A stretch of 64,000 nucleotides of DNA, taken from the IMG/VR virus record IMGVR_UViG_3300033069_001798, positions 1-64,000 of that record, one strand, 5' to 3'. The position numbers and the translations under genes are program-made. Source of the DNA: a virus (Duplodnaviria; Heunggongvirae; Uroviricota; Caudoviricetes). The notes under the pieces are model-generated. The model was not told where the DNA came from. It worked only from the letters and a program-made list of their open reading frames with translations, and did not search any database. Of this stretch, positions 883-62,732 are shown piece after piece (within the stretch, counting starts at the first letter, position 1; each line of letters begins with the position of its first letter).

Positions 883-888
883 TGTTAG

Positions 889-4123: not shown

Positions 4124-4135
4124 AGTAGGCCTACT

Positions 4136-4402: not shown

Positions 4403-4409
4403 ATCGTGA

Positions 4410-4439: not shown

Positions 4440-4462
4440 CAGAGTGGTAAGATGTTAAGAGG

Positions 4463-7336: not shown

Positions 7337-7587
7337 TGAACCATTCAAGCGTCAAAATTCTGTCTGGTGATCTCTGCCGCCCAACGAGAGCATGTGCCAA
7401 CAGCAATTTGCAGTACATCAACTTTGCTAGCGCAACGGCATCTGAACGTGTTGTCAAGAGAGATGACGTTCTTGTGTTCATCTGCTGGACAGCATGGCGC
7501 GTGAACGAGCCAGCAAATTACGCTCAGTTCATCACCTCCGACGGAGAAATACTGTCGCTGAGAGCTGGGGAGTTCGAGGTTGTATGA
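7333..7587 (+). CDS. GDLV-family small protein (array member 33, 'GEF' subfamily)
   Basis: 84 aa; MMNHSSVKILSGDLCRPT..VLVFICWT..AQFITSDGEILSLRAGEFEVV. Confidence 0.7.
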   Translation: MMNHSSVKILSGDLCRPTRACANSNLQYINFASATASERVVKRDDVLVFICWTAWRVNEPANYAQFITSDGEILSLRAGEFEVV

Positions 7588-25505: not shown

Positions 25506-26438
25506 TCATTTAGGTATGTTGAACATCGATGCCATGAGGTCAACGCTAAGATTCTTGTGCTTAGCTTCGACTTCTACGGCGATTGTATCATCCCTAAGCC
25601 CACGGAGCTGACAATCAGGAACATGATGGATGTAGTCGCTATGCTTCCTCCTGTCAATAAATGAACCGTTCAACAATGAAGGCTCAGTGTTTGATATGTG
25701 CTGAAGAGGTATCACACCTTTCGGCCATGTCAACTGTGTTACATTGAACGCTTCGTCAGCAGTTAGCTCGCCGTCGTTGAACGTATGATGGTGCGAATCC
25801 CACACGATCGGCACGCCAGTTTCCTTGTAGACGGGTAGCAAGTCGACGACAGAGTACGCTGACTCATCGTTCTCAAGCGTAAGCCTAGACCGAACAGACT
25901 GTGGCAACGAACGAATGCCATCAACGAGCCGTGAATGACGGTCACCCTTACCACCGTGAATGTTGATTGCTGCGTGCGGCGACCGCGGGAGACCCATGGC
26001 ATCAAAGATCCAGCCATGAAGTGACAACTCGTTGAAAGAATTCTCAACAACGCGGTCAGAATCGGACGATATGACGCAGAACTGACCTGGGTGCGTTGTC
26101 AACCGTATACCACGTGAGATTGCTGCTGTGCCAGCACGCTGCAACTCTGCACGAACCGCAGGATTGTCCCACGTCTTGCGAGGCACTTTATCAGCAAGCG
26201 GGAACAGAGATGACGAAATTCGAAATAGACGAATCCCCGCTGCTGACACCTTGGGTATCATCGCAGCGAGGTTCTTGATGTTGCTGATGTACGTAACACG
26301 GATCTGCTCGTCAGTGTACGCGCCGCGCTGGAACCTTCCCAGCTGCAACGTACGTTCAGACATCTCATTGACGAGAACAGTGTTACCCGTGCGTGGTTGC
26401 ACGTGAGACTTAAGCCAATGGCAGCAAACGCCTAGCAT
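25506..26438 (-). CDS. uvdE: UV damage endonuclease (UvdE family)
   Basis: 310 aa; LTTHPGQF..NIHGGKGDR..WDSHHH metal-ligand-like motifs of the UVDE TIM barrel. Confidence 0.75.
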   Translation of the reverse strand: MLGVCCHWLKSHVQPRTGNTVLVNEMSERTLQLGRFQRGAYTDEQIRVTYISNIKNLAAMIPKVSAAGIRLFRISSSLFPLADKVPRKTWDNPAVRAELQRAGTAAISRGIRLTTHPGQFCVISSDSDRVVENSFNELSLHGWIFDAMGLPRSPHAAINIHGGKGDRHSRLVDGIRSLPQSVRSRLTLENDESAYSVVDLLPVYKETGVPIVWDSHHHTFNDGELTADEAFNVTQLTWPKGVIPLQHISNTEPSLLNGSFIDRRKHSDYIHHVPDCQLRGLRDDTIAVEVEAKHKNLSVDLMASMFNIPK

Positions 26439-26471: not shown

Positions 26472-26708
26472 TCACTTCTTCTTGTTGCCAAACACTAGCT
26501 TTTTCAGCATCTTGTTGAACTCTCTAGCCTCACTGACCTTTGCAATACCAATCTTCCCAGGATACTGTAGACGCAGTTGAGCGTAAAATTTCTTCAGCTG
26601 CGCGGGCGTAACAGGCTTCAAGGGCGCGGGCTTAAATTCTCCTTTTTGTTCAGACTGAACCCATTCTAGCTTCGTAGTAAGATCACTAAGGTTTCTAGCG
26701 GTGGACAA
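26472..26708 (-). CDS. Hypothetical basic protein (78 aa)
   Basis: ORF only. Confidence 0.4.
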   Translation of the reverse strand: MSTARNLSDLTTKLEWVQSEQKGEFKPAPLKPVTPAQLKKFYAQLRLQYPGKIGIAKVSEAREFNKMLKKLVFGNKKK

Positions 26709-28558
26709 AAAGGGGCGTCGCCCTCGGGGCCGCCTCCTTCTTCGTTCTCTTCACCTTCAAGATCTTCAGTGATAGGACCGTTATCGGGCGGATCAGTCTT
26801 CATGGAGTGATCATCAAGTGTTGTCACTTCAGGCGCTGGATCATCCTCGTACTTCTCGAGGCGAGCAACACGCTTCGAGAGCTCGATCGTAGACTCAGAT
26901 GCTTCAGCGGCAGACATGAACCGACGCCTCTTCACGTACTCTTGGATGAAGGCGATGGGCCAATTCTTGACGAGCTCGTAAGCCTCATCAGCGTAAGTTC
27001 CAAGGATCGACCTGACAACATCACCGTCCATTGTCTTCACAAACAACATCTCATCGAAGCGACCAGGGCGAAGGATTGCCTCATCAAGACTGTTACGATT
27101 GTTGACAGTTGCGATGACAAGCTTCACGTGCCTCTGGAAGAACTCGAGCGTCTCGAGCAGCTGCGCCTGCGCATGCGCTCTGTCAAAGTCATCCAAGATG
27201 ATTGCATCGGGTTCAAAGATCGTGATAGCCTCAAAGAGCGTAGAGCTCTCAAGGTTAGCAACATCCTCAACGCGAATTCGGAAGCTGCGCATGCCAAGGT
27301 TCTCCACGATGGTTCGAGCCATCGTAGACTTTCCAGTCCCCGGCGGACCGTACAGCATCACTGACCGCGGCACGTCAGCGTCGATGCACCGCTTCAAGTA
27401 TGCTGCGTACGAAGTTGCTCTCTCAGATGCAAGGGGATGAAAGGCATCGTCAGATTCAAACACGATCCTAGAATCATCGTCAGACGTTCCGACGCGCTTG
27501 TTCTGCCTCATGACGAGGTTTGAATCTTTCAAAGATTCCCACAAGATCTTCTTGATGAGAGCTTGAGCCTCTTTCAACTTCGCAGTGTCAACGTAGATGT
27601 TGCCGGGAACGTTGAGACGGGTGTTCATCGTGTAACCCATCTTGATGCCATCAGCATCGATCATGCGAATGATCGTAGCATCATCGTTGGTGCGAATGTT
27701 CTCGTAAGGATATCGACTGACGACCTTGATGATCGTAGAGTTGAAGTCCCTGCTGTAAGGTGCAGACCACTCATCACCAGAGAAGAAATCATCTCCCCAC
27801 ACTTCAAACTGCTCAATGAGCACTTTGGAGATCGAGAAGCTGCTCTTCAAACCGTTCCACCAGGTGGGATCTTCCAAGAAGGGCGTTGATGCTTGAAAGA
27901 TGTCAGTTCCAACGTGGATGACTTGCTTCACCTTGCTCACGTTGAAGAAATCTCTAACTTGCGTCACTAGCGTCTTGTTCTTTTCAGTCATTTTGTCTCG
28001 TGGTGCTAAAAATTCAACGTTGTAACGAACTCGCTTGTTTGCTTTTGACGTGAAAGTCACGTCGCACTCTTCGTACTTCCCGTCTACGATCGCCGCCCCC
28101 ACGACCTTTGTAACATGCTCATAATCTGGATCGACGTACGTCATGATGAAGAATGCTCGACCCGTTGTCAGGGGTGCTAGTTTCTTGATGACTACGTTCT
28201 CAAAAGAATTCTTTGCAGTGTTTTCAACATCTGACCAATAGATCTTTGGGATGCTGATGAACTCGTAACCTGCTTGTGGGTAAGCGCACCGCTTGCAGAA
28301 ACGAGCGTCATTATCGTTCATCGCCTTGCACTGGCTGCACTCTTTTGCCTCGCCGCAATTGTCATACTCATGAACAACATCGTCGATGAACGTGCAACAC
28401 ATGTCGCCGTGCTCTTCTTGGATGTTCCTTAGATCTGACACCTTCACTTTCAAAGTGCTGTGGAACGTCGTGATGCTATCGATGACAGATTTCTTGGCTT
28501 TGGTGCTTGGTGCCATAAGTTGAAATGTACCCTGCAGATCAGCTATTTTACAAGCCAC
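26666..28558 (-). CDS. AAA+ ATPase with N-terminal zinc ribbon
   Basis: Walker A LYGPPGTGKST, Walker B AIILDDFD, and CSQC..(11)..CKRC near the N-terminus. Confidence 0.75.
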   Translation of the reverse strand: MACKIADLQGTFQLMAPSTKAKKSVIDSITTFHSTLKVKVSDLRNIQEEHGDMCCTFIDDVVHEYDNCGEAKECSQCKAMNDNDARFCKRCAYPQAGYEFISIPKIYWSDVENTAKNSFENVVIKKLAPLTTGRAFFIMTYVDPDYEHVTKVVGAAIVDGKYEECDVTFTSKANKRVRYNVEFLAPRDKMTEKNKTLVTQVRDFFNVSKVKQVIHVGTDIFQASTPFLEDPTWWNGLKSSFSISKVLIEQFEVWGDDFFSGDEWSAPYSRDFNSTIIKVVSRYPYENIRTNDDATIIRMIDADGIKMGYTMNTRLNVPGNIYVDTAKLKEAQALIKKILWESLKDSNLVMRQNKRVGTSDDDSRIVFESDDAFHPLASERATSYAAYLKRCIDADVPRSVMLYGPPGTGKSTMARTIVENLGMRSFRIRVEDVANLESSTLFEAITIFEPDAIILDDFDRAHAQAQLLETLEFFQRHVKLVIATVNNRNSLDEAILRPGRFDEMLFVKTMDGDVVRSILGTYADEAYELVKNWPIAFIQEYVKRRRFMSAAEASESTIELSKRVARLEKYEDDPAPEVTTLDDHSMKTDPPDNGPITEDLEGEENEEGGGPEGDAPFCPPLETLVILLRS

Positions 28559-28562: not shown

Positions 28563-29481
28563 TCAAGCGTACTTGCACATCAGCTGCTCACCAAGATCCT
28601 TGAGGAACTGTACACCGTAGTTACCATCACGGCTAGCTTCAAGGTCGGTTTCAAGGAAGCTCGGCAACACTTCGTCAGAGTAGCGTGCAGATGCAATGCC
28701 CCATGCGATCGCAGCGACAGAGTCTGTGTCACCACCCCCAGCTCGCAACTCGAGACATGATACCCGCTAGCGATTTTTCTTCGACAAGCAACGTATGAAC
28801 AGCCCAAGCCGTGTTCCAACCGAGGCCACGATCCCCCGGCTGCTTCGGTCGAGCCTTCACAGGGCCCTCCCAGGGCTTCGAGAAATAATCAAAAGAATCT
28901 AGGTAACGGCTACACCATCCTAGCATGTGATTAAAATCTCGACGATCGTAGAGGGCATAATGCGACATCAATGCAACAGCGATCGAGGAGTTGATGCCAC
29001 CCCACGTGGCATGCGTCGTAGCTGCTTGCAACCCAGCGTAGCGAACGACGGCATCTGGATCTTTGATGACGCCTATGGGAACCGAGCGCATCGCTGCACC
29101 GTTCTTGTCGGAATTTGGTTGAAGCTTCAGCTTCAGCTCATCACCGTTCTTCGAAGACTCTAGTAGCTCTTGCATCGCTCTGCTGTAACCATCGCGTGGA
29201 TCTCTTGCATGAACTTCCCAAAATTTGCCAACAAAATCAACGGCGCTGGGTGATTCGCTGGTGCACAGCAACTCTGCGATCGCAATGCTCTGCTGGGTAT
29301 CATCTGAGTACCAGCCCGGTTTCATCAGCTCGTACGTTGGGTGCTGAACGTAACGATTCATAGAGCCAACAGCTTCAAAAAGCTCGCCATGCTTCTCTTT
29401 ATCGATGAATTCGATGCCCAACGCCAATGCATCTGCTTGCGCAATGCGCAGCAGCATGTTGCTGTTCTTACGTCTCATCAT
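28563..29481 (-). pseudogene. ADP-ribosylglycohydrolase (ARH/DraG family), split by a 1-nt frameshift in a G5/C5 run
   Basis: ORF 28729..29481 has ADALALGIEF and WYSDDTQQS. The family C-terminal motif GGDTDSVAAIAWG lies in ORF 28563..28748 in another frame. The frames meet at CCCCC 28735-28739, and removing one G restores ..ASWGGDTDS... Confidence 0.7.
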
Positions 29482-30052: not shown

Positions 30053-30868
30053 CTACTTCTGTCTTTTTGGACACCAGTAAGTTGTTCGACCGTCAGCGGT
30101 CGCTTTTTTTTCTACTGGGAATCCATGAGGATCAGTGACTTGATTGTACACTGAAAATCTGTCTGATATCCATGATGTGCCATCCGGACCCACAGAATAA
30201 GCCCCACCGAGCTCGTACGACAGGTTCATCATCATTATGATAGCTGATCGTAGGTCAGCAAAGTCTTCGTGGGTTAGCGACGAAACTGGACGATGCGGTG
30301 ATATCTTCGCAGCATACAAAGATTCACACTTCAAGTAATTACCGACGCCAGAGACGCAGCTTTGGTCCATCAGAGCCTCAGCGATCGTTCGATTGCTCTT
30401 GAACATCATGCGCTCGATGAATTCTTCATCATCCGGTGGTGCGTTAAGCATGTCAGGACCTATTGACTTCAGCTTTGAAGCTAGCGCTTCGGCAGAAGAC
30501 GTGAAGCTCAACGTCCCGAATCGACGCTGGTCAATGAACGTCGTTGTCAACTCATCAGACATGATTGACATGACAGCGTGCCCAGCCGTGGGCCGCGTCG
30601 TCCACTTTCCCGTCATCCCGTAGGTGCACATCATGTACCAATCGGGCTCAAGATCTTTCTTGAACGTCCACCATGAGAACTTTCCCTTTACGCGAGCTGC
30701 TTCCATCATGTAGCCATCACGAACAGCAGAGGCGAAATTTTGGTAACCAGCGGGCTCTTTCGAAGAGTAACGACCAGTGTTGTGCAGCTGAACGGCACGA
30801 ATGATCTCACCGCTGAACAGGTTGTTGATCTCTTCGACGCTCAACGTGACTTCAACACCCTCGGGCAT
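30053..30868 (-). CDS. Fpg/Nei-family DNA glycosylase/AP lyase (degenerate zinc finger)
   Basis: Catalytic N-terminus MPEGVEV (Pro2/Glu3) and an H2TH-like middle. The C-terminus ..VTDPHG..TTYWCPKRQK lacks three of the four usual Cys residues. Confidence 0.75.
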   Translation of the reverse strand: MPEGVEVTLSVEEINNLFSGEIIRAVQLHNTGRYSSKEPAGYQNFASAVRDGYMMEAARVKGKFSWWTFKKDLEPDWYMMCTYGMTGKWTTRPTAGHAVMSIMSDELTTTFIDQRRFGTLSFTSSAEALASKLKSIGPDMLNAPPDDEEFIERMMFKSNRTIAEALMDQSCVSGVGNYLKCESLYAAKISPHRPVSSLTHEDFADLRSAIIMMMNLSYELGGAYSVGPDGTSWISDRFSVYNQVTDPHGFPVEKKATADGRTTYWCPKRQK

Positions 30869-31198
30869 TCATCCCTCCAGCGCAGCAGCACCGGCCGCCG
30901 CGGCATTGTAGAACCTGACATCGACATTGTCTGATGCCTTGAAAAGAAACCACTGGTTGAGCGTCTCGTCCCAAGCGTGGATCGTTCCATCTTCATCGAT
31001 CTTGTGAATCTCGCAAGATGAAGTGTGAGGACGAGCATGGCGCAACCGAGTCACCAAGATCTTGCTACCAACTGGTGCTAGCAGCACGCCGTCCGCGATC
31101 GCAGGCACTGTCTTTGGATCGATCTTCACTCTCTTCTTTCGTGGAGCCTTCGGCGCTTTCTCTTTAACGCGTTCAGCGATCTTCTTTGCGTTGCTCAT
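30869..31198 (-). CDS. Hypothetical protein (109 aa, basic N-terminus)
   Basis: ORF only. Confidence 0.45.
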   Translation of the reverse strand: MSNAKKIAERVKEKAPKAPRKKRVKIDPKTVPAIADGVLLAPVGSKILVTRLRHARPHTSSCEIHKIDEDGTIHAWDETLNQWFLFKASDNVDVRFYNAAAAGAAALEG

Positions 31199-31619
31199 GT
31201 TTCTTTATCCAGTCGTAGTATATGCCCAACGCACCGTCTGACGGGCGGTCGCTACCCACATCGCATTGGAAGAACATCTTCCATGATCTCCAACCGTACT
31301 CACCGATACCGGGCAGCTCCCGGGCATCTGACCAAGATTTGCTCACGTAAGCCTTTGTCATTGACCTGATCGTGGCTTCGCGACGATTCTTGAATCCAAG
31401 CGACCGGATCAAGTCAGCGACTTCAGCTGGGGAGCTCTCCAAGTACTTCTCAGGCGTTGACCAACGAGACATGAATTCAGGTAGGATCTTTTCTACCTGC
31501 GTTCTCTTCGTCCGGTTCAGCATGATGCAGCTGACGAGGACGAGCCATTCATTGGGCCATAGAGATTCTTGTATGAGACTGTGAGGACTTGCTAGCGGTA
31601 TCATACCACTTGCCAACAT
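31173..31619 (-). CDS. HhH-GPD DNA glycosylase, MBD4-glycosylase-domain-like
   Basis: NEWLVLVSCIMLNRTKRTQV..LGFKNRREATI..ELPGIGEYGWRSWKMF..YYDW parallels the MBD4 catalytic domain (..LIATIFLNRTSG..LGLYDLRAKTI..LHGIGKYGNDSYRIF..YHDW). Confidence 0.7.
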   Translation of the reverse strand: MLASGMIPLASPHSLIQESLWPNEWLVLVSCIMLNRTKRTQVEKILPEFMSRWSTPEKYLESSPAEVADLIRSLGFKNRREATIRSMTKAYVSKSWSDARELPGIGEYGWRSWKMFFQCDVGSDRPSDGALGIYYDWIKKHEQRKEDR

Positions 31620-31643: not shown

Positions 31644-32318
31644 TCATCTGCCGTACTTCTTGTCAAAGTACGTGTTACCAAGTTGGTACAGAACATTTTC
31701 TAGCGATGATTGCTTCACGTCGTGCTTTGCCAGCTGCTGAGCAACTTCACCATGCCTTTGGATCAAGCTTGATTTTGCCGCGCTTTGTCCTGGCCCGTCG
31801 TAAGAGTAGTTCAATACCTTGTTTGGATCTTTCACAAGCTCGCAGTCATCGCATTCTTCTGGTGTCTTTGGATCATCACGATCATCAAACGGTTTCTTGT
31901 CAACGTCGCTGCGCTTCGAAGAGTAATATTGCCACAACTTCTCGGCAGAAGAATTTGTCGATACCCTGTCTGGCATCAAGCCACCGTCGCCGTCGCTCAT
32001 GACAATATCGTACATGAGCGGACCGTAACCTTTAGACGCTGCAGATCGATGAACTTCGATAGCGTCATTGCACTCGTCAGAGTGTGGGATGGCTTCGATG
32101 AAACCGTAGATAAATTCATCGAGAGGTTTGGAGAATCGCATGCTCCAGAAACCCGGTTCTTGCATGACAGACGCTAGAGTCTTGGGCTCGTAAAGAACGT
32201 AGTAAATCTTACCTTCTCGCTGTCCCCTATAAAGAGCTAGCCCAGCATCTATAGCTTGATCTCCGCCCACTGCTGCTTCAATGAGGTGTGATATGTACGA
32301 CTTCAAGTGTTGCTTCAT
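31644..32318 (-). CDS. Hypothetical protein (224 aa) with weak leader-type N-terminus
   Basis: MKQHLKSYISHLIEAAVGG... Confidence 0.5.
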   Translation of the reverse strand: MKQHLKSYISHLIEAAVGGDQAIDAGLALYRGQREGKIYYVLYEPKTLASVMQEPGFWSMRFSKPLDEFIYGFIEAIPHSDECNDAIEVHRSAASKGYGPLMYDIVMSDGDGGLMPDRVSTNSSAEKLWQYYSSKRSDVDKKPFDDRDDPKTPEECDDCELVKDPNKVLNYSYDGPGQSAAKSSLIQRHGEVAQQLAKHDVKQSSLENVLYQLGNTYFDKKYGR

Positions 32319-32824
32319 AGGATTCCCACCCTCTTGAACAGCTTTCGATTGTAGTCGCTGAAAGATCCTTGCAGGAGAACAGCGGGTTCAACCCACTTCA
32401 CCACACCAGATTCATCAGTGTCAACGTTACCCATGACTGAGCAAGAGTAAGTCGTCACGAAGTAACCAGCATCATCTTTCTGCGAGAACACTTTTGTTAG
32501 ATTTACAGCAGTGTAACCAGTCTCTTCTTCAAGCTCTCTTGCAGCGGCTTCAACCTCAACCTCACCAGGATCCACTTTCCCACCCGGCAATCCAAAATCG
32601 TTTGGATCATCTTTCCTAGAGACTGCCAAGATCTTTCCGTTTGGGTTCCTAACAAGAACGCATGCAGCTCGCGGGGCATTCAAAGCTGCGAGCGTCTCGT
32701 CTTCTTCGTCATTTGCCAACGAACCACCCACTTCGACGTTTGTTATCGGCGGTCGAGGATCTGTCAACATCTCACGGATGAGCTGCTTCAGAAGCTTAAC
32801 TTCTTTGGTTCTGGAAGTGGACAT
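32315..32824 (-). CDS. Nudix hydrolase with leader-type N-terminal extension
   Basis: Nudix box GLPGGKVDPGEVEVEAAARELEEETG. N-terminus from ATG 32824 is MSTSRTKEVKLLKQLIREMLTD. Confidence 0.8.
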   Translation of the reverse strand: MSTSRTKEVKLLKQLIREMLTDPRPPITNVEVGGSLANDEEDETLAALNAPRAACVLVRNPNGKILAVSRKDDPNDFGLPGGKVDPGEVEVEAAARELEEETGYTAVNLTKVFSQKDDAGYFVTTYSCSVMGNVDTDESGVVKWVEPAVLLQGSFSDYNRKLFKRVGIL

Positions 32825-33162
32825 GATTCGATCTGATCGCAGCTCGTTATGTTCTTGACGCAAGACGGAGCGAGCCAAACGCCTGCTGCTTGCGTATCAC
32901 GGCAGAACACGCTGCACGTTGCCACGCAGTGGTTCGCTACGCAACCATGACCCAAGTCACAATCACCAGTGTCAGCGCACAACCTCTTCATGTCGATATC
33001 ACGGCCCTCTTCGCAACCCAAGCTGTTGAGACGATCACATGCAGCCTGGCAGTCACCCGTATCGGTCACAACTGGCGGTTGAGGTGTTACGTTGGACCCA
33101 CGAGGGCACCCAGAAATAATCAACGTAATGAGAAGGATAGATACTGCGCCCAATTTTTTCAT
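32788..33162 (-). CDS. Cys-rich lipoprotein
   Basis: Signal peptide plus lipobox MKKLGAVSILLITLIISGC. More than 12 Cys in the mature part. Confidence 0.6.
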   Translation of the reverse strand: MKKLGAVSILLITLIISGCPRGSNVTPQPPVVTDTGDCQAACDRLNSLGCEEGRDIDMKRLCADTGDCDLGHGCVANHCVATCSVFCRDTQAAGVWLAPSCVKNITSCDQIESCPLPEPKKLSF

Positions 33163-33169: not shown

Positions 33170-33493
33170 TCAAATTTCTCTCAAGTACCCAAACTTAGCA
33201 TTGATGAGCCCAACAAGCGCTGAATCTGTTTCCTTGAAATCATTGTTGTGCTTGCGGAATAGCTTCGCGTACTTTGAAGATGCATAATCGATGATCTCAC
33301 GTCTGATATTATCAGGCAGAGGTTCATCATTGATCTCTTCTGTCTTTCTGATCCAGAAAACGGCAGCAGTGCGACCATTTGATGCTAGCGACGGCGCCAT
33401 GTGCCTCTTTAGCCGGGCGATGAACTTTGTGTCAAGCTTGAGCTCAGCAATGATAGTTGAGACGTACTCTTTCAGCAGCTGTTGATCGCTCAT
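33170..33493 (-). CDS. Hypothetical protein with leader-type N-terminus
   Basis: ATG 33493 in an ATGA overlap; MSDQQLLKEYVSTIIAELKLD... Confidence 0.5.
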   Translation of the reverse strand: MSDQQLLKEYVSTIIAELKLDTKFIARLKRHMAPSLASNGRTAAVFWIRKTEEINDEPLPDNIRREIIDYASSKYAKLFRKHNNDFKETDSALVGLINAKFGYLREI

Positions 33494-34296
33494 GTACCCT
33501 CCAAAAACGGTACCCAAAAGCTGTTTGCAGAGCTTTCGTCTAGGTACTTAAACGGCACCCAAGCGTAACCATCATCTCCCCACCAAGTTCCCCAAGAGTT
33601 GCGAACCAACCACAGCTCTCTTCCAAGATCGTAGCCTACGATCACTTGGCAGTGACCTCCAGCGCCGGCCCTAACGGACTTTGGCATCGCAACGGGTGGA
33701 CCGCCGCGGTACGCCATGTAATCTTTATCGACAGTCATGCCAAAGACGATCGGATGGCTTGCTTGCAGCGCAGAGATGATGTAGTTTTTCTGCGCTTGAC
33801 CAGATCCACCGATAGAATAGTAGCTGTCAATTTTGTTGACGTAAGCGTCCCTGTAAGAACCCCAAGACGGTCGAATGAAGACCTTGCTGGTGTCATAAGG
33901 CCACTTTTCTTCTGCACAAGTTCCCAACGATGACAGCGTTCCGAACGCCATGTGAATGTAAGCACCCTCATCGCGATCTTGCATTCGTGACATCAAACGA
34001 GCATTGTAGTAGACGAACATCCTAGACAGGTCTACGAAAGGTTTGCCGTTGCGGATCTGAAGAAACTCGAGAGCCCCAACGACACCGTTGCCCGTACAAC
34101 TTCCTATAGCTCCCTGATCCTCGACCGGTGAGCACCACTGGCGCAGATCTAGGACGCCGTCGACCTCTTGCGGAGCGCTAGCTGGTGATGCAGCTGCGAA
34201 CTTAGAGATATTATCCGCAAAGACGTAGTTCTTGCTTGCGTCATGATCTGGATCTTCGTGGTCGGCTTTCCAGCCGCCTAGCTTTGGTACGTACAT
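33490..34296 (-). CDS. Papain-like (C1 family) cysteine peptidase
   Basis: QGAIGSCTGNG (Gln/Cys), GGHCQVIVGYD (His), LVRNSWGTWWGDDGY (Asn-Ser-Trp). Confidence 0.85.
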   Translation of the reverse strand: MYVPKLGGWKADHEDPDHDASKNYVFADNISKFAAASPASAPQEVDGVLDLRQWCSPVEDQGAIGSCTGNGVVGALEFLQIRNGKPFVDLSRMFVYYNARLMSRMQDRDEGAYIHMAFGTLSSLGTCAEEKWPYDTSKVFIRPSWGSYRDAYVNKIDSYYSIGGSGQAQKNYIISALQASHPIVFGMTVDKDYMAYRGGPPVAMPKSVRAGAGGHCQVIVGYDLGRELWLVRNSWGTWWGDDGYAWVPFKYLDESSANSFWVPFLEGT

Positions 34297-35647: not shown

Positions 35648-36841
35648 TCAGAATTCGCCGCGAGTTCCGTGCTTCGCGTAGTAATCAGCTTCGTGCCGAG
35701 CAGAAGACTTCTTGTGCTTCGACCAAGACTTGATCTCTTCTGGCGTTGGCTTCACTGCGTCTGCAAACATGTAGTCAGCGCGTTGAGCTCGGCCGTCAGT
35801 TGTCCGGCACGTGACGTAGCTACCACCAGTCGACGGCGTATCTTCAAACGAAGCGATCTGAACGACAGCACCGCCTGGCAACTTCACCCAGTCACCGACG
35901 TTCCAGCCATCAAATGATGTCATTCCCTCGGTGAGAATCGTTCTGATCATCGACTTAAGCTCGCGAAGCTTGATCTTCATAACGAGTAAGTATTCACCCC
36001 AAAGGTGATCAAACGTCGCAGTGAACTTTCCCCAAGCTTCATCTTTCAGAAGCGACTTAAAGCCGTACTTCTCGAACGTAGAGCGGACTGGCGCCCAATC
36101 TTTGGTCGGTTGCGAAGACGTCATGCCATGCGCCTCTTCGTCAGACCACGTGGTGAACTTGATGAGCGAATAGTTCTTTCGAAAGGCTTCTTTATTAGCA
36201 GGATCATTGAAGAACTCCTTCAACGCATCCGGGTCGTCCATCAGCGCCGTAGCAGCACCATCCGTAATGATCTTTGGGATGTTGTCTGTTGGATCTCCAC
36301 GAAGAGCCTTCCATGTAACGTAATCAGCGGGAGCTTGCTCAACGTAAGCCTTCTTCATGGGGTTGTAGATGCTGACGCCCTCAAATTCATCTAGGAGCTG
36401 CGTGAAGTCAGAATCGTTCGATACAACTGTCCACTTCACGGCTCGTGTGCCACGCTTGATGAGGTTGTAGATTGTGTCATCGCACTCGTGGTGAGGATGA
36501 CGCACGACAGAGAACGGAAAAGAACCAGCCAGCAACCCGACTATCTCGTCGACCTGGCTGAAGAACTTCACCATCTCATCGTGCTCTTTGGTGCCGGCTT
36601 CTACGATGCGGTTCGCTTTGTATTGCGGCAAGATATCGTGACGAGCTTGCGGATGGCCTTCAAGCACGAAATACAAGCGACTGATATCAAGTTTTTCTAC
36701 TAGTGCTCGTATGTTACGAAAAAAATTAAAAACTACAGGAGCTGGACCAGCTGTCCAGCCAGTTCTAGACCGGTGCAAAAAATTCATCCCATCTACTAGA
36801 CAAATATGAGGACGCATAATTCTATTGTTACGTGCTTCCAT
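35648..36841 (-). CDS. 5'-3' exonuclease / flap endonuclease (RNase H-like) with a 110-aa C-terminal extension
   Basis: The N-terminal PIN-like region has CLVDGMNFLHR and HECDD. Residues 288-397 (35648..35980) begin MKIKLRELKSMIRTILTEG (leader motif), followed by a GDLV-type module NVGDWVKLPGGAVVQIASF..YVTCRTTDGRAQR. The first ~51 codons are AT-rich (cassette-derived). Confidence 0.8.
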   Translation of the reverse strand: MEARNNRIMRPHICLVDGMNFLHRSRTGWTAGPAPVVFNFFRNIRALVEKLDISRLYFVLEGHPQARHDILPQYKANRIVEAGTKEHDEMVKFFSQVDEIVGLLAGSFPFSVVRHPHHECDDTIYNLIKRGTRAVKWTVVSNDSDFTQLLDEFEGVSIYNPMKKAYVEQAPADYVTWKALRGDPTDNIPKIITDGAATALMDDPDALKEFFNDPANKEAFRKNYSLIKFTTWSDEEAHGMTSSQPTKDWAPVRSTFEKYGFKSLLKDEAWGKFTATFDHLWGEYLLVMKIKLRELKSMIRTILTEGMTSFDGWNVGDWVKLPGGAVVQIASFEDTPSTGGSYVTCRTTDGRAQRADYMFADAVKPTPEEIKSWSKHKKSSARHEADYYAKHGTRGEF

Positions 36842-37479: not shown

Positions 37480-37668
37480 TCAATTAAGTATATCGAACCG
37501 TGTTGGAGGGGCAAAGAATAGCGTCTCCACGAGAGACCTGATGTTCCTCATGAAGTTGAAGACGACGGGCGCAGGACCGCCTGTCCATCCACTTCGGGCT
37601 CGATGCAGAAAATTCATGCCGTCGCACAGAACCACGTGAGGTTGTAGCATCTTCTTAGATTGTACCAT
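37480..37668 (-). pseudogene. Orphaned native 5' fragment of the FEN gene
   Basis: MLQPHVVLCDGMNFLHRARSGWTGGPAPVVFNFMRNIRSLVETL matches IMRPHICLVDGMNFLHRSRTGWTAGPAPVVFNFFRNIRALVEKL of the full gene. It then diverges and stops (TGA) immediately before the HEG ATG. Confidence 0.75.
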
Positions 37669-38677
37669 GACGTAACGTTTCGTTGCACTTCTTCAAGTAC
37701 CATGCACGCGCAGCAGCTTGCAGCTGACCACGAACGTCGTGCCACTCCAACCCGCTGGCTTCAAGCTCAGCTTGAGCTTCCTTGAAGACGTCCTTGCACA
37801 CCCAAGCCAAGAACGGTCCCGTGAGTCGCGGATGATATTCACCACCGAGCGTGGCGACACCTTGCACGAGGCGAGCTTCAGACAGAACGAGAGCGACAAA
37901 CTCAGCTGCAGATGCGGCAACTTCCGGATCAACTTGCGCTGGTTTTCCGTGCGTCAAGATCTTGTGAGCTTCACCCTTTGCCTTGAAAGCCAAGTTCGTG
38001 AACGTCTTCACCGTCGTTGGCAGTGGGTAGTAAACGAGACCTTCACCGACGCCCTCAACTTGGAACGTGGACTTTACCCAGGGATCGCATCTCTCAACTT
38101 CAGCAACGTCGCTGTTTATCTTGTCAACGATGGGTTGCAGATCTTTTGCATGGTGCAACATGTTAACGTTGAACGACTTCGAGTGCCAAGGAAGCACGTA
38201 CGCATCATGGACGCCCGCGACCAGCATCTCGAGTTCGTCAGGTTCAACGATCAGCTTCGACTCTTCGTTGTCAAATGCGTCTAGGGTCGCAGCGGCAAAG
38301 ACAGCAAAGAACTTCTTGCTGACTTGCGTCAATGCTGTTCCCTTGTTGATGCCAGGTCCGCACCATTCACCGAAGATCACTTTATCGACTGCTGCACCGG
38401 TGTCTACAAACGATTGCGATTCTCTGTGAGCCCATGCTGCCAACCCAGCAAAATCGTTGCCAGGAGCGATGAACTGCTCGCGGGTCTGGACTGTGATGCC
38501 CTTTCGCCTGACTTGGATCCCTGCATTGGCACCATGAAGCTTCACCTTGGGCCTGAAGGTGACGTTACCGTCTCCCACGATGTGGGGGTAGTTCCTGATG
38601 TTCTTCCGAAGCGTGTGGAAGTTGACTATCTCTGGCCATCTGATGAACGACATCTGCTTTGAATCCTTCCTGTGCAT
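37655..38677 (-). CDS. ATP-dependent RNA ligase (Rnl2-like nucleotidyltransferase)
   Basis: Motif I KVKLHGANAG (KxHG as in T4 Rnl2) and FGEWCGPGI. The start could be ATG 38653. Confidence 0.6.
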   Translation of the reverse strand: MHRKDSKQMSFIRWPEIVNFHTLRKNIRNYPHIVGDGNVTFRPKVKLHGANAGIQVRRKGITVQTREQFIAPGNDFAGLAAWAHRESQSFVDTGAAVDKVIFGEWCGPGINKGTALTQVSKKFFAVFAAATLDAFDNEESKLIVEPDELEMLVAGVHDAYVLPWHSKSFNVNMLHHAKDLQPIVDKINSDVAEVERCDPWVKSTFQVEGVGEGLVYYPLPTTVKTFTNLAFKAKGEAHKILTHGKPAQVDPEVAASAAEFVALVLSEARLVQGVATLGGEYHPRLTGPFLAWVCKDVFKEAQAELEASGLEWHDVRGQLQAAARAWYLKKCNETLRHGTI

Positions 38678-60752: not shown

Positions 60753-60889
60753 GTTCTCGATGTAAGTATTGCGTCCGATGTTCTCATGACTTCAATACCA
60801 ACTGATTGCAGCAAGACAAGACCTGACGAATCCCTGTACTGGATGTCATACACGACCCTAGAGATTCCAGCGTTGATGATCATCTTGAT
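60749..60889 (-). pseudogene. Orphaned native 3' fragment of the dCMP deaminase gene
   Basis: Hand-translated from 'intergenic' DNA: IKMIINAGISRVVYDIQYRDSSGLVLLQSVGIEVMRTSDAILTSRT*. It aligns with AKSLINSRVGRIVYLQKYRNSTGVKLLREAGIQV of the upstream AT-rich copy. GC-normal composition. Its TGA makes an ATGA overlap with gene 60417..60752. Confidence 0.7.
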
Positions 60890-62166
60890 TCATTTGAGAA
60901 ATCTACTAGATCCTGATAAGAATCAACTTGAATTCCAGCTTCACGAAGCAATTTTACACCAGTTGAATTTCTGTACTTTTGCAAGTACACGATTCTTCCA
61001 ACTCGACTGTTAATTAGACTTTTTGCACACATTATGCATGGAGATGTAGTTACGTAAACTGTGGAATTTTCAAGAGATTCAGATGCGTGAGAAATGGCAT
61101 TAATTTCTGCATGAATGCAACCACAAGAACCTGGTGTTAGGGAATCACAGCCATTAAGCCCTCCAGAATTTGATCCATTGTAGCCCAGGCATAGAACGCG
61201 TTCATTATGTTGATCAACAAAAACTGCGCCAACTCGCAATCTGCAACATGTTGATCTTTTTGCAAATGCAACTGCAACATGCATCCAAATAGAATCATAT
61301 GACGATCTACTGAATGTGCCTATGTCATTTTCATAGTATTCATGAATTTTTTCAATAGGTTCAAGATCGCGTTCATAAATCACGCGAAATTCAATGTTCT
61401 TGTTGGAATAAAAAGATCTAGCGGCTTCGATCTTTTTATTCGTATGTTCATTAACGTAGCCCTTAATCTCTTCAACGACCACGATATTAGAGTCATAATT
61501 GATGAAGAGATCAGGATTGTAATAGTGTGCATTACCTTCTTCATCAGACCAAAGAATTTTATCTTTACATCTACCCCATGCTAGAACTGTATTGTCAAAA
61601 TCCAGTTCTTTGAATCTTCGTAGCTCATAGCTAGAATCGTAATGAACTGTTCCAGCCTTTGTTGACTTGTATCTTCCTTTAAGAAAGTTCTTGTTAAAAT
61701 TTTCTGGTTCGTAAGATCTTTTGTAACAATCACGAGAACAATAACGATCATAATGATGTTTCAGATTGCTTTTCACAAAGTTTGAACAATCTTTTCCACT
61801 GCATTGCACTACAATTTTATTTTGTGAATGAAATGCTAGATAACATTCTCTATCACAAAAACAATTTGCATGCGCAACAATTGTTGAACGATAACGAAAA
61901 TTTGTTTTGTTACACCAAGAGCAATTTACTTGAACATGCGTTATAGATTTTTGTTCAGCTTTGTTGTGCAAAGCGCTACATTTTCTTGAACAAAACTTTC
62001 TTCCATTGTCAGCATAACACTTCAAAACATTGAATGCAGAATTACATTGAACGCATTTAATGGTGACTCGTTTGCTTTTCTGGAAGCATGTTTTTGAACA
62101 GTAATCATTTTTTGACTTTTTTTTGCCATGACAAATAGGACACAAATCTATTTCAGATTGAATCAT
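60880..62166 (-). CDS. Fusion ORF: Zn-ribbon repeats plus PD-(D/E)xK nuclease-like (homing-endonuclease-like) N-part and dCMP deaminase C-part
   Basis: ATG 62166 in an ATGA overlap with the tdk stop. Four CxxC..(F/Y)CSxxC ribbons. YDSSYELRRFKELD..YYNPDLFINY..VVVEEIKG (TnsA-like PD-ExK). C-terminus AKRSTC..GYNG..CIHAEINAI..SPCIMCAK (the CDA zinc motif). The whole ORF is AT-rich (~33% GC by hand count at 61341-61400). Confidence 0.75.
   Translation of the reverse strand: MIQSEIDLCPICHGKKKSKNDYCSKTCFQKSKRVTIKCVQCNSAFNVLKCYADNGRKFCSRKCSALHNKAEQKSITHVQVNCSWCNKTNFRYRSTIVAHANCFCDRECYLAFHSQNKIVVQCSGKDCSNFVKSNLKHHYDRYCSRDCYKRSYEPENFNKNFLKGRYKSTKAGTVHYDSSYELRRFKELDFDNTVLAWGRCKDKILWSDEEGNAHYYNPDLFINYDSNIVVVEEIKGYVNEHTNKKIEAARSFYSNKNIEFRVIYERDLEPIEKIHEYYENDIGTFSRSSYDSIWMHVAVAFAKRSTCCRLRVGAVFVDQHNERVLCLGYNGSNSGGLNGCDSLTPGSCGCIHAEINAISHASESLENSTVYVTTSPCIMCAKSLINSRVGRIVYLQKYRNSTGVKLLREAGIQVDSYQDLVDFSNESR
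60880..62166 (-). mobile_element. AT-rich cassette 3 (nuclease-like module plus replacement dCMP deaminase)
   Basis: The composition break falls exactly at both ORF ends. A native deaminase 3' remnant lies directly downstream. Confidence 0.6.
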
Positions 62167-62732
62167 GTTAGCACTATGAAAGGATGACATCGCAAGCAAC
62201 GCGGCTCGTATAGCTCGTGCCCGCCAACTTCAAGCAACGTTTCATCTTCGCTCTTCTTGTACGTAAAATGAGCATCTTGCGAGCAGATCGTGCACACTGC
62301 TGAGCACTTCTCTATTGACGTTGCCCAAGGCAGCATCTTTGTCACTTCATCGAACGGCTTACCATTGAATGCAGTGTCAAGCGTTGACACTATGATGTTG
62401 TAGCCGTTCCTGTACAAGAACGTCAAAGCATCAGCAACGCCGTTAATCATGAAAGCTTCATCTACTGCGATGATGCTAATGTCGTTGTTCTGCTCTTCAA
62501 GAACTTTCGCAAGAATACCTTCTGCGTTATTGACAGTGACTGCATCGTGACGCCAACCACCGTGCGTCACGATCTGAGACGTAGAGTAGCGATCATCTAT
62601 CGCAGGCTTGAAAACTAGAGCGTTTCTCTTCTGGTACTTGCAACGCTCAAGCTCCATCAACAATCGAGATGATTTTGATGACCACATGGGTCCGACGTAC
62701 ATCACGAATGTTGGATTAGCTTGCTTGCTCAT
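62163..62732 (-). CDS. tdk: Thymidine kinase
   Basis: P-loop GPMWSSKSS and a C-terminal Cys cluster (CSAVCTIC..CLRC). Confidence 0.85.
   Translation of the reverse strand: MSKQANPTFVMYVGPMWSSKSSRLLMELERCKYQKRNALVFKPAIDDRYSTSQIVTHGGWRHDAVTVNNAEGILAKVLEEQNNDISIIAVDEAFMINGVADALTFLYRNGYNIIVSTLDTAFNGKPFDEVTKMLPWATSIEKCSAVCTICSQDAHFTYKKSEDETLLEVGGHELYEPRCLRCHPFIVLT

What the first reader, a model, noticed from the sequence alone, without database searches (positions are those of the whole stretch)
30053..31619. Adjacent Nei/Fpg (zinc-finger-degenerate) and MBD4-type glycosylases in a genome that probably hydroxymethylates pyrimidines
The Nei/Fpg homolog keeps the catalytic MPEG-VEV N-terminus. Its C-terminal zinc finger is reduced: DPHG replaces the first CxxC, and the tail is CPKRQK. 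This recalls the 'zincless finger' of NEIL1/mimivirus Nei. Two genes away is a 148-aa HhH glycosylase that matches the catalytic domain of mammalian MBD4 motif for motif (LNRT, LG-x5-R-x-x-T-I, GIG-x-YG, Y-x-DW). Established knowledge: MBD4 removes T, U and 5-hydroxymethyl-U opposite G. The window also encodes a gp42-like hydroxymethylase and dCMP deaminase. Inference: these glycosylases may police deamination products of modified cytosine in phage DNA, or attack unmodified host DNA.
Basis: partly seen in the sequence, partly recalled or inferred. Interest (0 to 1): 0.5.

Follow-up and report, generated by a model that had tools for sequence, protein, structure and literature searches.

The report
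Jumbo-phage MBD4-like plus Nei repair gene pair
A giant bacteriophage that carries the enzyme for making 5-hydroxymethylcytosine DNA also carries a co-transcribed pair of DNA-repair glycosylases, one a stand-alone copy of the mammalian MBD4 mismatch enzyme and one like mimivirus Nei1; the pair recurs in many uncultured viruses and probably repairs deaminated and oxidised pyrimidines in the viral genome.

Summary
ORF 30053-30868(-) is a Nei/Fpg glycosylase. Its closest solved relative is mimivirus Nei1, and its zinc finger is degenerate. ORF 31173-31619(-) is a 148-aa stand-alone MBD4-type glycosylase with all catalytic and thymine/uracil-reading residues. The window-end ORF 63487-63993(-) is a true T4 gp42-type dCMP hydroxymethylase.

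New findings:
- The two glycosylases form a conserved viral gene pair. Nei lies downstream on the same strand in 30 of 80 viral loci (15 of 35 lineages), against 0 of 240 control loci.
- A small basic protein, orf109, is often wedged between them.
- FEN, NUDIX and a mini Pol X-like gene recur nearby.
- MBD4-like genes sit inside the dCMP-modification operon of the 5mC phage Xp12 group.
- Every readable TS-family gene next to one carries Asp at the base-specifying position, the cytosine-specific type.
- 791 named-phage records with a gp42-like gene, mostly T-even-type, lack the glycosylase. The link to modified cytosine is therefore lineage-specific, not obligatory.

Best reading: a phage base-excision-repair initiation module. 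In this phage its MBD4-like arm would see 5hmU:G.

No biochemistry exists. This is a new viral variant of known enzyme kinds, of moderate interest.

The parts
31173..31619 (-). Stand-alone MBD4-type HhH-GPD DNA glycosylase (148 aa, no Fe-S cluster, no MBD domain)
   Evidence: Pfam HhH-GPD. PDB MBD4 glycosylase domain, E 3e-19, gapless. AlphaFold pLDDT 90.4, Foldseek TM up to 0.93 to MBD4. Q17, N35, Y108, D128 and L74-G75 are invariant in 44 homologs.
30869..31198 (-). orf109: a small conserved protein with a Lys-rich N-terminal tail and a ~60-aa domain carrying a WDETxxxW(F/Y)xF motif. It overlaps the MBD4-like gene by 26 nt and its stop codon abuts the Nei start codon. Function unknown; a possible DNA-binding accessory.
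   Evidence: No Pfam, PHROG or NCBIfam hit. Homologs lie immediately downstream of the MBD4-like gene in 11 of 80 viral loci, 8 of 35 lineages. Junctions.
30053..30868 (-). Nei/Fpg-family bifunctional glycosylase/AP lyase, MvNei1/NEIL1-like, with a degenerate (zincless-type) finger
   Evidence: Pfam. PDB MvNei1, E 1.5e-34. Model pLDDT 93.6, top five folds MvNei1. P2, E3, K63, N177 and R261 invariant; Cys ligands lost.
32315..32878 (-). NUDIX hydrolase, a recurrent upstream neighbour of the MBD4-like gene. The start may be internal: a 169-aa version is called on related contigs.
   Evidence: Pfam NUDIX, E 3e-20. Homolog 1-4 kb upstream in 19 of 80 loci. Weak NCBIfam matches to MutT and pyrimidine dNTP diphosphatase, all far below cut-off.
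31644..32318 (-). orf224, an unknown gene between NUDIX and the MBD4-like gene. It is conserved only in close relatives.
   Evidence: No family hit. Found only in L015 among the 80 loci.
35648..36841 (-). 5'-3' exonuclease / flap endonuclease (FEN-type), a candidate long-patch BER or replication nuclease
   Evidence: Pfam 5_3_exonuc_N, E 1e-16. PHROG exonuclease. Within 10 kb of the MBD4-like gene in 30 of 80 loci.
43588..44145 (-). 185-aa Pol X-like minimal nucleotidyltransferase (palm plus thumb only), a candidate gap-filling polymerase
   Evidence: Pfam DNA_pol_B_thumb, E 1.6e-5, at cut-off. Aligns to the T. thermophilus PolX palm, E 3e-6, with GS...DxE...D. NCBIfam PolX, E 2e-5. Within 10 kb of the MBD4-like gene in 13 of 80 loci.
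25506..26438 (-). UvdE UV-damage endonuclease, another repair gene in the same co-directional block
   Evidence: Pfam UvdE, E 8e-53. Near the MBD4-like gene in 7 of 80 loci.
63487..64000 (-). C-terminal ~170 codons of a gp42-type dCMP hydroxymethylase. The gene runs off the window end; it is 219 aa on related contigs.
   Evidence: Pfam Thymidylat_synt. Full-length copy at L008:8587-9246, E 3e-71 to T4 dCMP hydroxymethylase, with C148, D179 and E60 equivalents conserved. About 55% identical to T-even dCMP hydroxymethylases.
60880..62199 (-). dCMP deaminase (C-terminal ~145 aa) with a ~295-aa N-terminal extension that has a weak TnsA-like endonuclease match
   Evidence: Pfam dCMP_cyt_deam_1, E 5e-23. 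NCBIfam ComEB. Relatives carry a 145-aa version.

Best explanation
The interval is a co-transcribed, translationally coupled three-gene module of an uncultured jumbo phage of at least 314 kb: MBD4-like glycosylase, orf109, Nei. It initiates base-excision repair of the phage's own DNA.

Shown:
- The fold and all catalytic residues of both enzymes.
- The tight gene junctions.
- Conservation of the directional gene pair across many viral lineages.
- A genuine gp42-type dCMP hydroxymethylase in the same genome.

Inferred mechanism:
1. The MBD4-like enzyme is monofunctional: a catalytic Asp, and Tyr in place of the Lys nucleophile. It flips out and removes a uracil-type pyrimidine mispaired with G.
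2. If this phage's cytosines are 5hmC, as the gp42-type enzyme implies, its physiological substrate would be 5hmU:G. That is the deamination product of 5hmC, and a uracil-specific UDG would not be expected to remove it.
3. Nei then has two roles. It cuts the resulting abasic site by beta,delta-elimination. This may also release the glycosylase, because MBD4 is strongly product-stalled. Independently, Nei removes oxidised pyrimidines.
4. Gap filling and end processing would fall to neighbouring or distant phage genes (the mini Pol X-like protein, FEN) and to a ligase not identified here.

orf109, with its basic tail, may help DNA binding or hand-over between the two enzymes.
For: Enzyme identity.

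Active-site map against the MBD4-DNA structures (PMC3458566, with alignments):
- Q423, Y514 and D534 correspond to Q17, Y108 and D128, all invariant.
- L421 and L440 (stacking) correspond to L15 and L34.
- N441 corresponds to N35.
- The L480-G backbone that reads the orphan G corresponds to L74-G75.
- The Arg finger R442 corresponds to R36 in the window protein.

MBD4 excises U, T and 5hmU opposite G and is product-stalled (PMC3458566, PMC3479182; PDB 4ew0 and 4e9h).

Operon: orf109 overlaps the MBD4-like gene by 26 nt. Its TGA abuts the Nei ATG, with a GGAGG just upstream. No above-chance terminator or promoter lies inside the block.

Gene pair:
- Nei lies within 10 kb in 30 of 80 viral loci, always downstream on the same strand.
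- It directly abuts the MBD4-like gene in 7 loci.
- That is 15 of 35 lineages, against 0 of 240 control loci (p about 1e-15).

The same trio occurs on three further contigs.

Modified-cytosine context:
- gp42-type hydroxymethylase.
- The Xp12-group operon.
- D-type TS genes near MBD4-like genes.

Repair neighbourhood: FEN, Pol X-like, NUDIX and UvdE.
Against: - No enzymology exists for any viral member.
- T-even and other named phages with gp42-like genes (791 records) lack an MBD4-like gene. None was found beside 120 sampled gp42-type loci. 5hmC DNA therefore does not by itself call for this enzyme.
- 72 of 80 MBD4-like loci show no TS homolog within 10 kb. Whole-contig co-occurrence could not be measured.
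- Two pocket residues on the C5 side differ from MBD4 and are near-invariant in the viral family: G445 is Arg39 and K536 is Ala130. The wedge is Phe instead of Leu. Most family members replace the Arg finger with Cys, Gln or Leu. Substrate range may therefore differ from MBD4.
- If the 5hmC is further glycosylated, the deaminated base might not fit the pocket. A sugar-nucleotide epimerase gene lies beside the hydroxymethylase on L008.
- No AP endonuclease, 3'-phosphatase or DNA ligase was identified in the window. The ligase-like gene is T4 Rnl2-like.
Confidence: 0.6

Rival explanations
1. This is a general-purpose repair island with no connection to base modification. The pair simply gives a very large, slowly replicating or light- and oxidant-exposed phage its own BER for ordinary U:G or T:G deamination and oxidised bases, alongside UvdE, SOD and NUDIX. 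The hydroxymethylase in the same genome is coincidental.
For: - The block also holds UvdE, FEN, a Pol X-like gene and two NUDIX genes, with Fe/Mn SOD farther along.
- Most MBD4-like loci have no TS homolog within 10 kb.
- gp42-carrying named phages lack the glycosylase.
- gp42-type loci sampled from viral contigs have none nearby.
- The closest gp42-like relatives of this phage (74-79% identity, including a 309-kb contig) are not among the top 80 MBD4-like contigs.
Against: - In the Xp12 group the glycosylase sits inside the dCMP-modification operon.
- Every readable TS-family gene near a viral MBD4-like gene is Asp-type and none is Asn-type.
- 5 of 7 informative loci of one D-type TS subfamily carry the glycosylase about 5 kb away.
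- In a fully 5hmC genome every cytosine deamination yields 5hmU. The two readings then converge in this phage.
Confidence: 0.27
2. The pair is an offensive or discriminating nuclease system. The MBD4-like enzyme has been retuned to remove unmodified C, or U, from host DNA while sparing 5hmC. Nei's lyase turns the abasic sites into strand breaks, which helps degrade host DNA.
For: - Pocket residues on the C5 side differ from MBD4: G445 is Arg and K536 is Ala, both near-invariant.
- A glycosylase followed by a beta,delta-lyase amounts to a base-specific nuclease.
- 5hmC phages such as T4 are known to destroy cytosine-containing host DNA (general knowledge).
Against: - The residues that read the thymine/uracil Watson-Crick edge are invariant: the Gln17 side chain, Tyr108 and the main chain at position 16. 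PMC3458566 explains that this hydrogen-bond pattern is opposite to the one cytosine offers.
- The same family occurs in the Xp12 group without Nei.
- It also occurs in lineages with no detected modification gene.
- MBD4-type enzymes turn over very slowly, which suits repair rather than bulk degradation.
Confidence: 0.05
3. The module is a counter-defence. It reverses damage that host anti-phage cytosine deaminases, or other DNA-damaging defences, inflict on incoming or replicating phage DNA, rather than repairing spontaneous decay.
For: Anti-phage deaminase systems exist: NCBIfam has a model named 'anti-phage dCTP deaminase'. The repair chemistry would be identical to the best explanation. An ADP-ribosylglycohydrolase, a typical counter-defence type of enzyme, lies three genes downstream.
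Against: The known anti-phage deaminases of that model act on dCTP, not on DNA. No specific evidence ties this module to a defence system. This is a variant of the best explanation, not a distinct mechanism.
Confidence: 0.08

Closest known systems
Mammalian MBD4 (MED1) C-terminal glycosylase domain (PDB 1NGN, 4DK9, 4EW0, 6VJW)
   Same: - Same small, cluster-less HhH-GPD fold (TM up to 0.93, rmsd 1.4 A).
- About 30% identity without gaps over 136 residues.
- Same N-terminal P-x-R-S-P-x-x-L-[IV]-Q-E motif.
- Same catalytic Asp.
- Tyr in place of a Lys nucleophile, so the enzyme is monofunctional.
- Same Gln that reads N3/O2, same L-N-x-T loop and same L-G backbone that reads the orphan guanine.
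- The viral profile hits many long proteins with the domain at the C-terminus at E about 1e-40.
   Different: - It stands alone: there is no methyl-CpG-binding domain and no linker.
- It is encoded by phages, with none found in 185,579 prokaryotic genomes by pattern scans.
- G445, which lies next to the C5 substituent, is Arg39. K536, which touches the 5hmU hydroxyl, is Ala130.
- The wedge Leu is Phe.
- The Arg finger is kept in the window protein but is Cys, Gln or Leu in most relatives.
- Activity is untested.
Mimivirus Nei1 (MvNei1, L315; PDB 3A42/3A46/3VK8) and human NEIL1
   Same: - Full-length homology, E 1.5e-34, 31% identity.
- Top structural match.
- Catalytic P2/E3/K, the H2TH motif and the finger Arg are conserved.
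- The zinc ligands are lost, as in the 'zincless finger'.
- It is encoded by a large DNA virus.
   Different: - It comes from a phage, not a eukaryotic giant virus.
- The family is mixed: some members keep a C-H-C-C finger.
- It is genetically coupled to an MBD4-type glycosylase. I am not aware that this has been described for mimivirus (own knowledge, not tested here).
Xp12-group (Bradleyvirinae) 'ENDO3c' protein (AXL1 gp65, Xp12 QNN97216)
   Same: It is a distant member of the same MBD4-like family, 27-28% identical over 86% of the query. It keeps the catalytic Asp, the GxGKY motif and the L-G motif. It is encoded by phages with fully C5-modified cytosine (5mC) and lies next to an Asp-type TS homolog.
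   Different: There is no Nei partner. The finger motif is LNLT. The protein has an N-terminal extension. The AXL1 authors judged its active site absent or uncertain and did not link it to 5mC (PMC9206674).
Vertebrate TDG/MBD4 followed by NEIL1/NEIL2 hand-over in active demethylation (general knowledge)
   Same: A product-inhibited monofunctional mismatch glycosylase is followed by a Nei-family AP lyase that processes the abasic site. The gene order here would fit such a relay.
   Different: In the phage the partnership is inferred only from gene linkage. No interaction or stimulation has been shown.
T4 gp42 dCMP hydroxymethylase pathway
   Same: The window-end gene is 55-58% identical to T-even gp42, with C148, D179 and E60 conserved. 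A dCMP deaminase and a thymidine kinase lie adjacent, as in T-even nucleotide-metabolism clusters.
   Different: The phage is not T4-like: it has a DnaE-type polymerase, GroEL and a genome of at least 314 kb. T-even phages have no MBD4-like or Nei genes.

Membership tests
MBD4-type HhH-GPD glycosylase | HhH-GPD fold without an Fe-S cluster, about 140 aa | tested here: met
   Pfam HhH-GPD. AlphaFold pLDDT 90.4. The top 16 PDB hits are all MBD4, TM 0.81-0.93. The protein has only two Cys and no cluster motif (sequence).
MBD4-type HhH-GPD glycosylase | Catalytic Asp after the HhH motif (mouse D534, human D560) | tested here: met
   D128 aligns with it and is invariant in 44 homologs.
MBD4-type HhH-GPD glycosylase | Tyr in place of the Lys nucleophile (Y514), and the Gln that reads the pyrimidine N3/O2 (Q423) | tested here: met
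   Y108 and Q17 are invariant. Their roles are taken from PMC3458566.
MBD4-type HhH-GPD glycosylase | Arg finger (R442) and Leu wedge (L482) | tested here: inconclusive
   The window protein has R36, but most relatives have Cys, Gln or Leu at that position. The wedge is Phe76, near-invariant.
MBD4-type HhH-GPD glycosylase | Excision of T, U and 5hmU opposite G | not testable with these tools
   This needs a glycosylase assay. The pocket residues G445->R39 and K536->A130 differ from MBD4.
MBD4 protein (full architecture) | N-terminal methyl-CpG-binding domain | tested here: not met
   The protein is 148 aa and consists of the glycosylase domain only. It is therefore a homolog of the MBD4 catalytic domain, not an MBD4 ortholog.
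Fpg/Nei superfamily, NEIL1/MvNei1 type | N-terminal Pro2 nucleophile, Glu3 and a conserved Lys | tested here: met
   The N-terminus is MPEG. P2, E3 and K63 are invariant in the 26-sequence alignment.
Fpg/Nei superfamily, NEIL1/MvNei1 type | H2TH DNA-binding motif | tested here: met
   Pfam H2TH, E 6e-16, above cut-off. The G-x-G-N-Y motif is invariant.
Fpg/Nei superfamily, NEIL1/MvNei1 type | Zincless finger: a beta-hairpin with a conserved Arg but without four zinc ligands | tested here: met
   The sequence is DPHGF...GRTTYWCPKRQK, with one His and one Cys left. R261 is invariant. The model shows a hairpin at 253-256/262-265 with pLDDT above 90. The best sequence and fold matches are MvNei1. 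Absence of metal binding was not tested directly.
Fpg/Nei superfamily, NEIL1/MvNei1 type | Glycosylase and beta,delta-lyase activity on oxidised pyrimidines and AP sites | not testable with these tools
   This needs enzymology, such as borohydride trapping and cleavage assays.
T4 gp42-type dCMP hydroxymethylase (context gene) | TS fold with the Cys148 nucleophile, Asp179 at the base-specifying position (Asn in TS) and Glu60 | tested here: met
   E 3e-71 to PDB 1B5D/1B49, against ~1e-10 to ThyA. FICT, RND and EIEWY align with C148, D179 and E60.
T4 gp42-type dCMP hydroxymethylase (context gene) | 5hmC actually present in virion DNA | not testable with these tools
   The phage is uncultured. This needs LC-MS or modification-aware sequencing.

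The most novel reading that the evidence does not exclude
MBD4-like, (orf109), Nei is a dedicated, previously unrecognised viral repair system for deaminated C5-modified cytosines (T:G in 5mC phages, 5hmU:G or sugar-5hmU:G in 5hmC phages). Its glycosylase pocket has been remodelled on the C5 side (Arg39 and Ala130 replace Gly and Lys) to accept bulkier substituents. The stand-alone viral family is the nearest non-eukaryotic relative, and possibly the source or an early acquisition, of the eukaryotic MBD4 catalytic domain.
Probability: 0.2. Interest if true: 0.7.

Novelty: new variant of a known kind. Interest (0 to 1): 0.55.

Why it matters
Phages that replace cytosine with 5mC or 5hmC face a chemical cost. 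Deamination of these bases yields T:G or 5hmU:G, which is not a UDG substrate. If phages carry their own MBD4-type mismatch glycosylase coupled to a Nei lyase, that would be the first described viral counterpart of the eukaryotic 5mC-deamination repair pathway.

It would also explain an unannotated gene in the classic 5mC phage Xp12. It could supply compact (~140 aa) T:G and 5hmU:G glycosylases, possibly with altered C5 tolerance, for epigenetic sequencing chemistry.

The conserved gene pair gives a genetic hint that hand-over from a mismatch glycosylase to a Nei lyase is an old arrangement. The viral family also bears on where the eukaryotic MBD4 catalytic domain came from.

Tried and rejected
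1. Megablast of 20 kb of the window against 50,697 phage records found no match. The phage has no close cultured relative.
2. Two scans of genome contigs, one with the single protein and one with the family alignment, found no cellular homolog. The peptide patterns used were narrow, so absence is suggestive only.
3. Contig-name intersection between the MBD4-like and gp42-like scans of IMG/VR found only the window's own phage in both lists. The single-protein scan reaches close relatives only, and lists are capped at 80, so genome-level co-occurrence could not be measured.
4. Reverse test: 120 gp42-motif loci and 120 ThyA-motif loci had no MBD4-like or Nei gene in their flanks. This rejects the idea that the pair generally accompanies gp42-type genes.
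5. I tested whether orf109 belongs to the 46-copy small-ORF family at 1-12 kb. It does not.
6. orf109 homolog search found only near-identical copies. No structure prediction was possible for it with a useful alignment.
7. The RNA_ligase-family gene at 37655-38677 was considered as the BER ligase. It is T4 Rnl2-like, so I do not claim it.
8. The MetaGPA papers on cytosine-modification-associated domains make no mention of glycosylases as associated genes.
9. Promoter and terminator scans gave nothing above chance.
It was rerun with alignment A2.
Full report
**Observation**

The minus strand of 30053-31619 carries three tightly packed ORFs: a 148-aa ORF (31173-31619), a 109-aa ORF (30869-31198) and a 271-aa ORF (30053-30868).

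The 271-aa protein is a Nei/Fpg glycosylase:
- It matches Pfam Fapy_DNA_glyco (N-terminal domain) and H2TH above their cut-offs. The C-terminal finger domain scores below its cut-off.
- Its best solved relative, over the full length, is mimivirus Nei1 (3A42/3A45/3VK7, E 1.5e-34). Bacterial Fpg follows at ~1e-18 and NEIL1 at ~1e-5.
- An AlphaFold model built on 26 homologs has pLDDT 93.6, and its five best PDB matches are all MvNei1.
- In the family alignment P2, E3, K63, N177 and the finger Arg261 are invariant.
- Some relatives have a C-x3-H...C-x2-C finger (CPEGH...WWCKQCQK). The window protein reads DPHGF...YWCPKRQK, and others have no cysteine at all.

The 148-aa protein is an MBD4-type glycosylase:
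- It matches Pfam HhH-GPD.
- It aligns without a gap (residues 8-143) to the human and mouse MBD4 glycosylase domain, E 3e-19.
- Its model (pLDDT 90.4) superposes on MBD4 structures with TM up to 0.93 and rmsd 1.4 A. The next fold class (Mig, EndoIII) scores TM about 0.58.

**Active site of the MBD4-like protein**

I mapped residues using the mouse MBD4-DNA structures described in PMC3458566 and the alignments.

| Mouse MBD4 | Phage protein | Role or status |
|---|---|---|
| L421 / V422 / Q423 | L15 / I16 / Q17 | base stacking; main-chain NH to O4; Gln to N3/O2 |
| L440 / N441 / R442 | L34 / N35 / R36 | stacking; minor groove; Arg finger |
| L480-G | L74-G75 | backbone reads the orphan G |
| L482 (wedge) | F76 | wedge changed from Leu to Phe |
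| Y514 | Y108 | conserved |
| D534 | D128 | catalytic Asp |

- Q17, N35, L74, G75, Y108 and D128 are invariant in 44 viral homologs.
- G445, whose C-alpha lies 4 A from the thymine methyl, is Arg39.
- K536, which touches the 5hmU hydroxyl, is Ala130.
- Both of these replacements are near-invariant in the viral family.
- The Arg finger is kept in the window protein but is Cys, Gln or Leu in most relatives.

The catalytic machinery and the thymine/uracil-reading hydrogen-bond network are therefore intact. The C5-facing side of the pocket is remodelled.

**What kind of genome this is**

- The window is densely coded with overlapping ORFs. It has T4-Seg-like GIY-YIG endonucleases, GroEL, UvdE, FEN, an Rnl2-like ligase, two NUDIX genes, SOD, thymidine kinase and a dCMP deaminase.
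- Related contigs add a DnaE-type polymerase.
- The identical Nei protein occurs on a 313,755-bp contig.
- No named phage is similar at the DNA level.

This is an uncultured jumbo phage.

**The hydroxymethylase claim**

- The ORF cut by the window end (63487-63993) belongs to the TS family.
- Its full 219-aa form (L008:8587-9246) matches T4 dCMP hydroxymethylase at E 3e-71, against ~1e-10 for thymidylate synthases.
- The equivalents of C148, D179 (the residue that makes the enzyme cytosine-specific) and E60 are conserved.
- Its nearest named relatives are T-even dCMP hydroxymethylases at about 55% identity.

The claim stands. Whether 5hmC is in the virion DNA cannot be tested here.

**The pair is a conserved viral module**

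- The same three-gene order occurs on three other metagenome contigs.
- A profile scan of IMG/VR found 314 viral relatives of the MBD4-like gene.
- In the 80 loci fetched (plus or minus 10 kb), a Nei homolog is present in 30. It is always downstream on the same strand, and it directly abuts the MBD4-like gene in 7 loci.
- After dereplication at 70% identity this is 15 of 35 lineages. None of 240 control viral loci (2.2 Mb) has a Nei or MBD4-like gene. Fisher p is about 1e-15.
- An orf109 homolog lies immediately after the MBD4-like gene in 11 loci (8 lineages).
- FEN occurs in 30 loci, NUDIX upstream in 19, and a 185-aa Pol X-like protein in 13.
- In the window, orf109 starts 26 nt inside the MBD4-like gene. 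Its TGA abuts the Nei ATG behind a GGAGG. No above-chance promoter or terminator interrupts the block.
- orf109 has a Lys-rich tail and a ~60-aa domain with a WDETxxxW motif. It has no database family.

**Link to modified cytosine: evidence for**

1. This phage has the gp42-type enzyme.
2. Among 50,697 named phage records, only 17 have an MBD4-like hit. Thirteen of them are Xp12-group siphoviruses.
   - Xp12 DNA has 5mC in place of C, and AXL1 shows the same restriction resistance (PMC9206674, PMC7653180).
   - In Xp12 and Donnerlittchen the glycosylase gene lies in the operon glycosylase, NTP pyrophosphohydrolase/HAD, TS homolog, dCMP deaminase, DHFR.
   - Their TS homolog carries Asp (GLPYD) where true TS has Asn.
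   - The AXL1 authors noted the 'ENDO3c' gene but drew no connection to 5mC.
3. Of the 80 viral loci, 8 have a TS-family gene within 10 kb. The six with a readable motif are all Asp-type (MRSNDxxxGFCND). None is Asn-type.
4. Locus L081 reads RNR, ClpP, ThyX, MBD4-like, Nei, DnaE, D-type TS, dUTPase/DCD. ThyX already supplies dTMP synthesis, so the extra Asp-type TS homolog is best read as a cytosine modifier.
5. For that TS subfamily, 5 of 7 informative loci carry the MBD4-like gene about 5 kb upstream.

**Link to modified cytosine: evidence against an obligatory link**

- 791 named-phage records with a gp42-like gene, with T-even types as the best matches, have no MBD4-like gene.
- 120 sampled gp42-motif viral loci have none in their flanks.
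- 72 of 80 MBD4-like loci show no TS homolog within 10 kb.
- The closest gp42-like relatives of this phage are not among the top MBD4-like contigs.
- Whole-genome co-occurrence could not be computed with the available tools.

**Mechanism proposed**

Shown: the enzyme families, their catalytic residues, the operon structure, the conservation of the pair, and the hydroxymethylase.

Inferred:
1. The MBD4-like enzyme, being monofunctional, removes a uracil-type base opposite G. In a 5hmC genome that base is 5hmU. MBD4 itself excises U, T and 5hmU opposite G (PMC3458566, PMC3479182).
2. MBD4 is strongly product-stalled. A downstream Nei with AP-lyase activity could clear the abasic site and release the glycosylase. 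Nei would also handle oxidised pyrimidines, as MvNei1 is crystallised with 5-hydroxyuracil DNA (3VK7).
3. The mini Pol X-like protein shows a GS...DxE...D palm aligned to T. thermophilus PolX. It and FEN are candidates for the later steps.
4. No AP endonuclease, 3'-phosphatase or DNA ligase was identified in the window. The ligase-like gene is Rnl2-type.

**Rivals**

- A general repair island unrelated to modification is the main rival (about 0.27). In this particular phage it converges with the best explanation if all C is 5hmC.
- An attack on host DNA is unlikely, because the pocket keeps the thymine/uracil-specific hydrogen-bond pattern.
- A counter-defence role is a variant of the repair reading.

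**Comparison and novelty**

- The viral proteins are homologs of the MBD4 catalytic domain, not MBD4 orthologs, because they have no MBD.
- A profile search of 1.84 billion representatives finds 418 at E<=1e-30. The top hits are short stand-alone proteins. They are followed by many long proteins with a C-terminal domain, which is the eukaryotic architecture.
- No relative was found in 185,579 prokaryotic genomes, although the pattern scans were narrow.
- I found no paper that describes viral MBD4-like glycosylases, their pairing with Nei, or a link to 5mC or 5hmC genomes.
- I rate this a new viral variant of known enzyme kinds. The testable idea it offers is of moderate interest.

Noticed in passing
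window 35-12018 (+ strand): A head-to-tail array of 46 paralogous small ORFs of about 70-95 aa each. The consensus is MIKPGDLVKP...GDLLVVIGY...ALLLLPDGEIVWLYAREVELL. There is no ORF of 150 aa or more in these 12 kb, and no Pfam match. Three or four loosely similar ORFs lie at 42215-43213 (-) but did not reach E 1e-3. This is a very large tandem gene family for a phage genome.
   Followed up: partly
window 12034-14775 (+): A 913-aa ORF matches the Major Vault Protein shoulder domain (E 2e-30), Vault repeats and SPFH/Band 7. An MVP-like protein encoded by a phage is unusual. A long antisense ORF (11986-14511) overlaps it, and local GC is raised to 0.55-0.56.
   Followed up: no
window 43588-44145 (-): A 185-aa Pol X-like protein consists of palm and thumb only, with a GS...DxE...D motif. 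It is about the size of the ASFV Pol X minimal polymerase. It is conserved at 50-56% identity near MBD4-like genes in 13 of 80 viral loci.
   Followed up: partly
window 60880-62199 (-): The dCMP deaminase is 439 aa here, and 428 aa on L009, but only 145 aa in close relatives (L008, L010, L011). The extra ~295 N-terminal residues carry a weak TnsA-like endonuclease match. This suggests a mobile endonuclease inserted and fused in frame between the thymidine kinase and deaminase genes.
   Followed up: partly
L008 6064-9246 (just beyond the window's right end): Immediately upstream of the gp42-type hydroxymethylase lie an NDP-sugar epimerase/dehydratase (322 aa) and an unknown 452-aa protein. This may be a sugar hypermodification pathway for 5hmC.
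   Followed up: no
window 28729-29481 (-), 26666-28558 (-), 33490-34296 (-): An ADP-ribosylglycohydrolase, a 630-aa AAA ATPase with a long N-terminal region, and a papain-family (C1) cysteine protease lie in the same co-directional block as the repair genes. The ADP-ribosylglycohydrolase recurs near MBD4-like genes in 5 of 80 loci.
   Followed up: no
window 54557-55683 (-), 59738-60454 (-): Auxiliary metabolic genes: pterin-4a-carbinolamine dehydratase, a carbon-nitrogen hydrolase and an Fe/Mn superoxide dismutase.
   Followed up: no
L012 26974-27456 (Xp12 record 46973-47455): Xp12's unannotated 'hypothetical protein' QNN97216 is a distant MBD4-like glycosylase. It lies next to an Asp-type TS homolog (RSSDLFVGLPYD) that is annotated as thymidylate synthase. 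That gene is probably the phage's dCMP methyltransferase, so both annotations look improvable.
   Followed up: partly
L091/L092 3358-4068: A divergent TS-family protein lies near an MBD4-like gene. Its motif is HMRSQNIGQVLKLD, which lacks the usual D and G of the RSxDxxxG motif. Its specificity is unclear.
   Followed up: no
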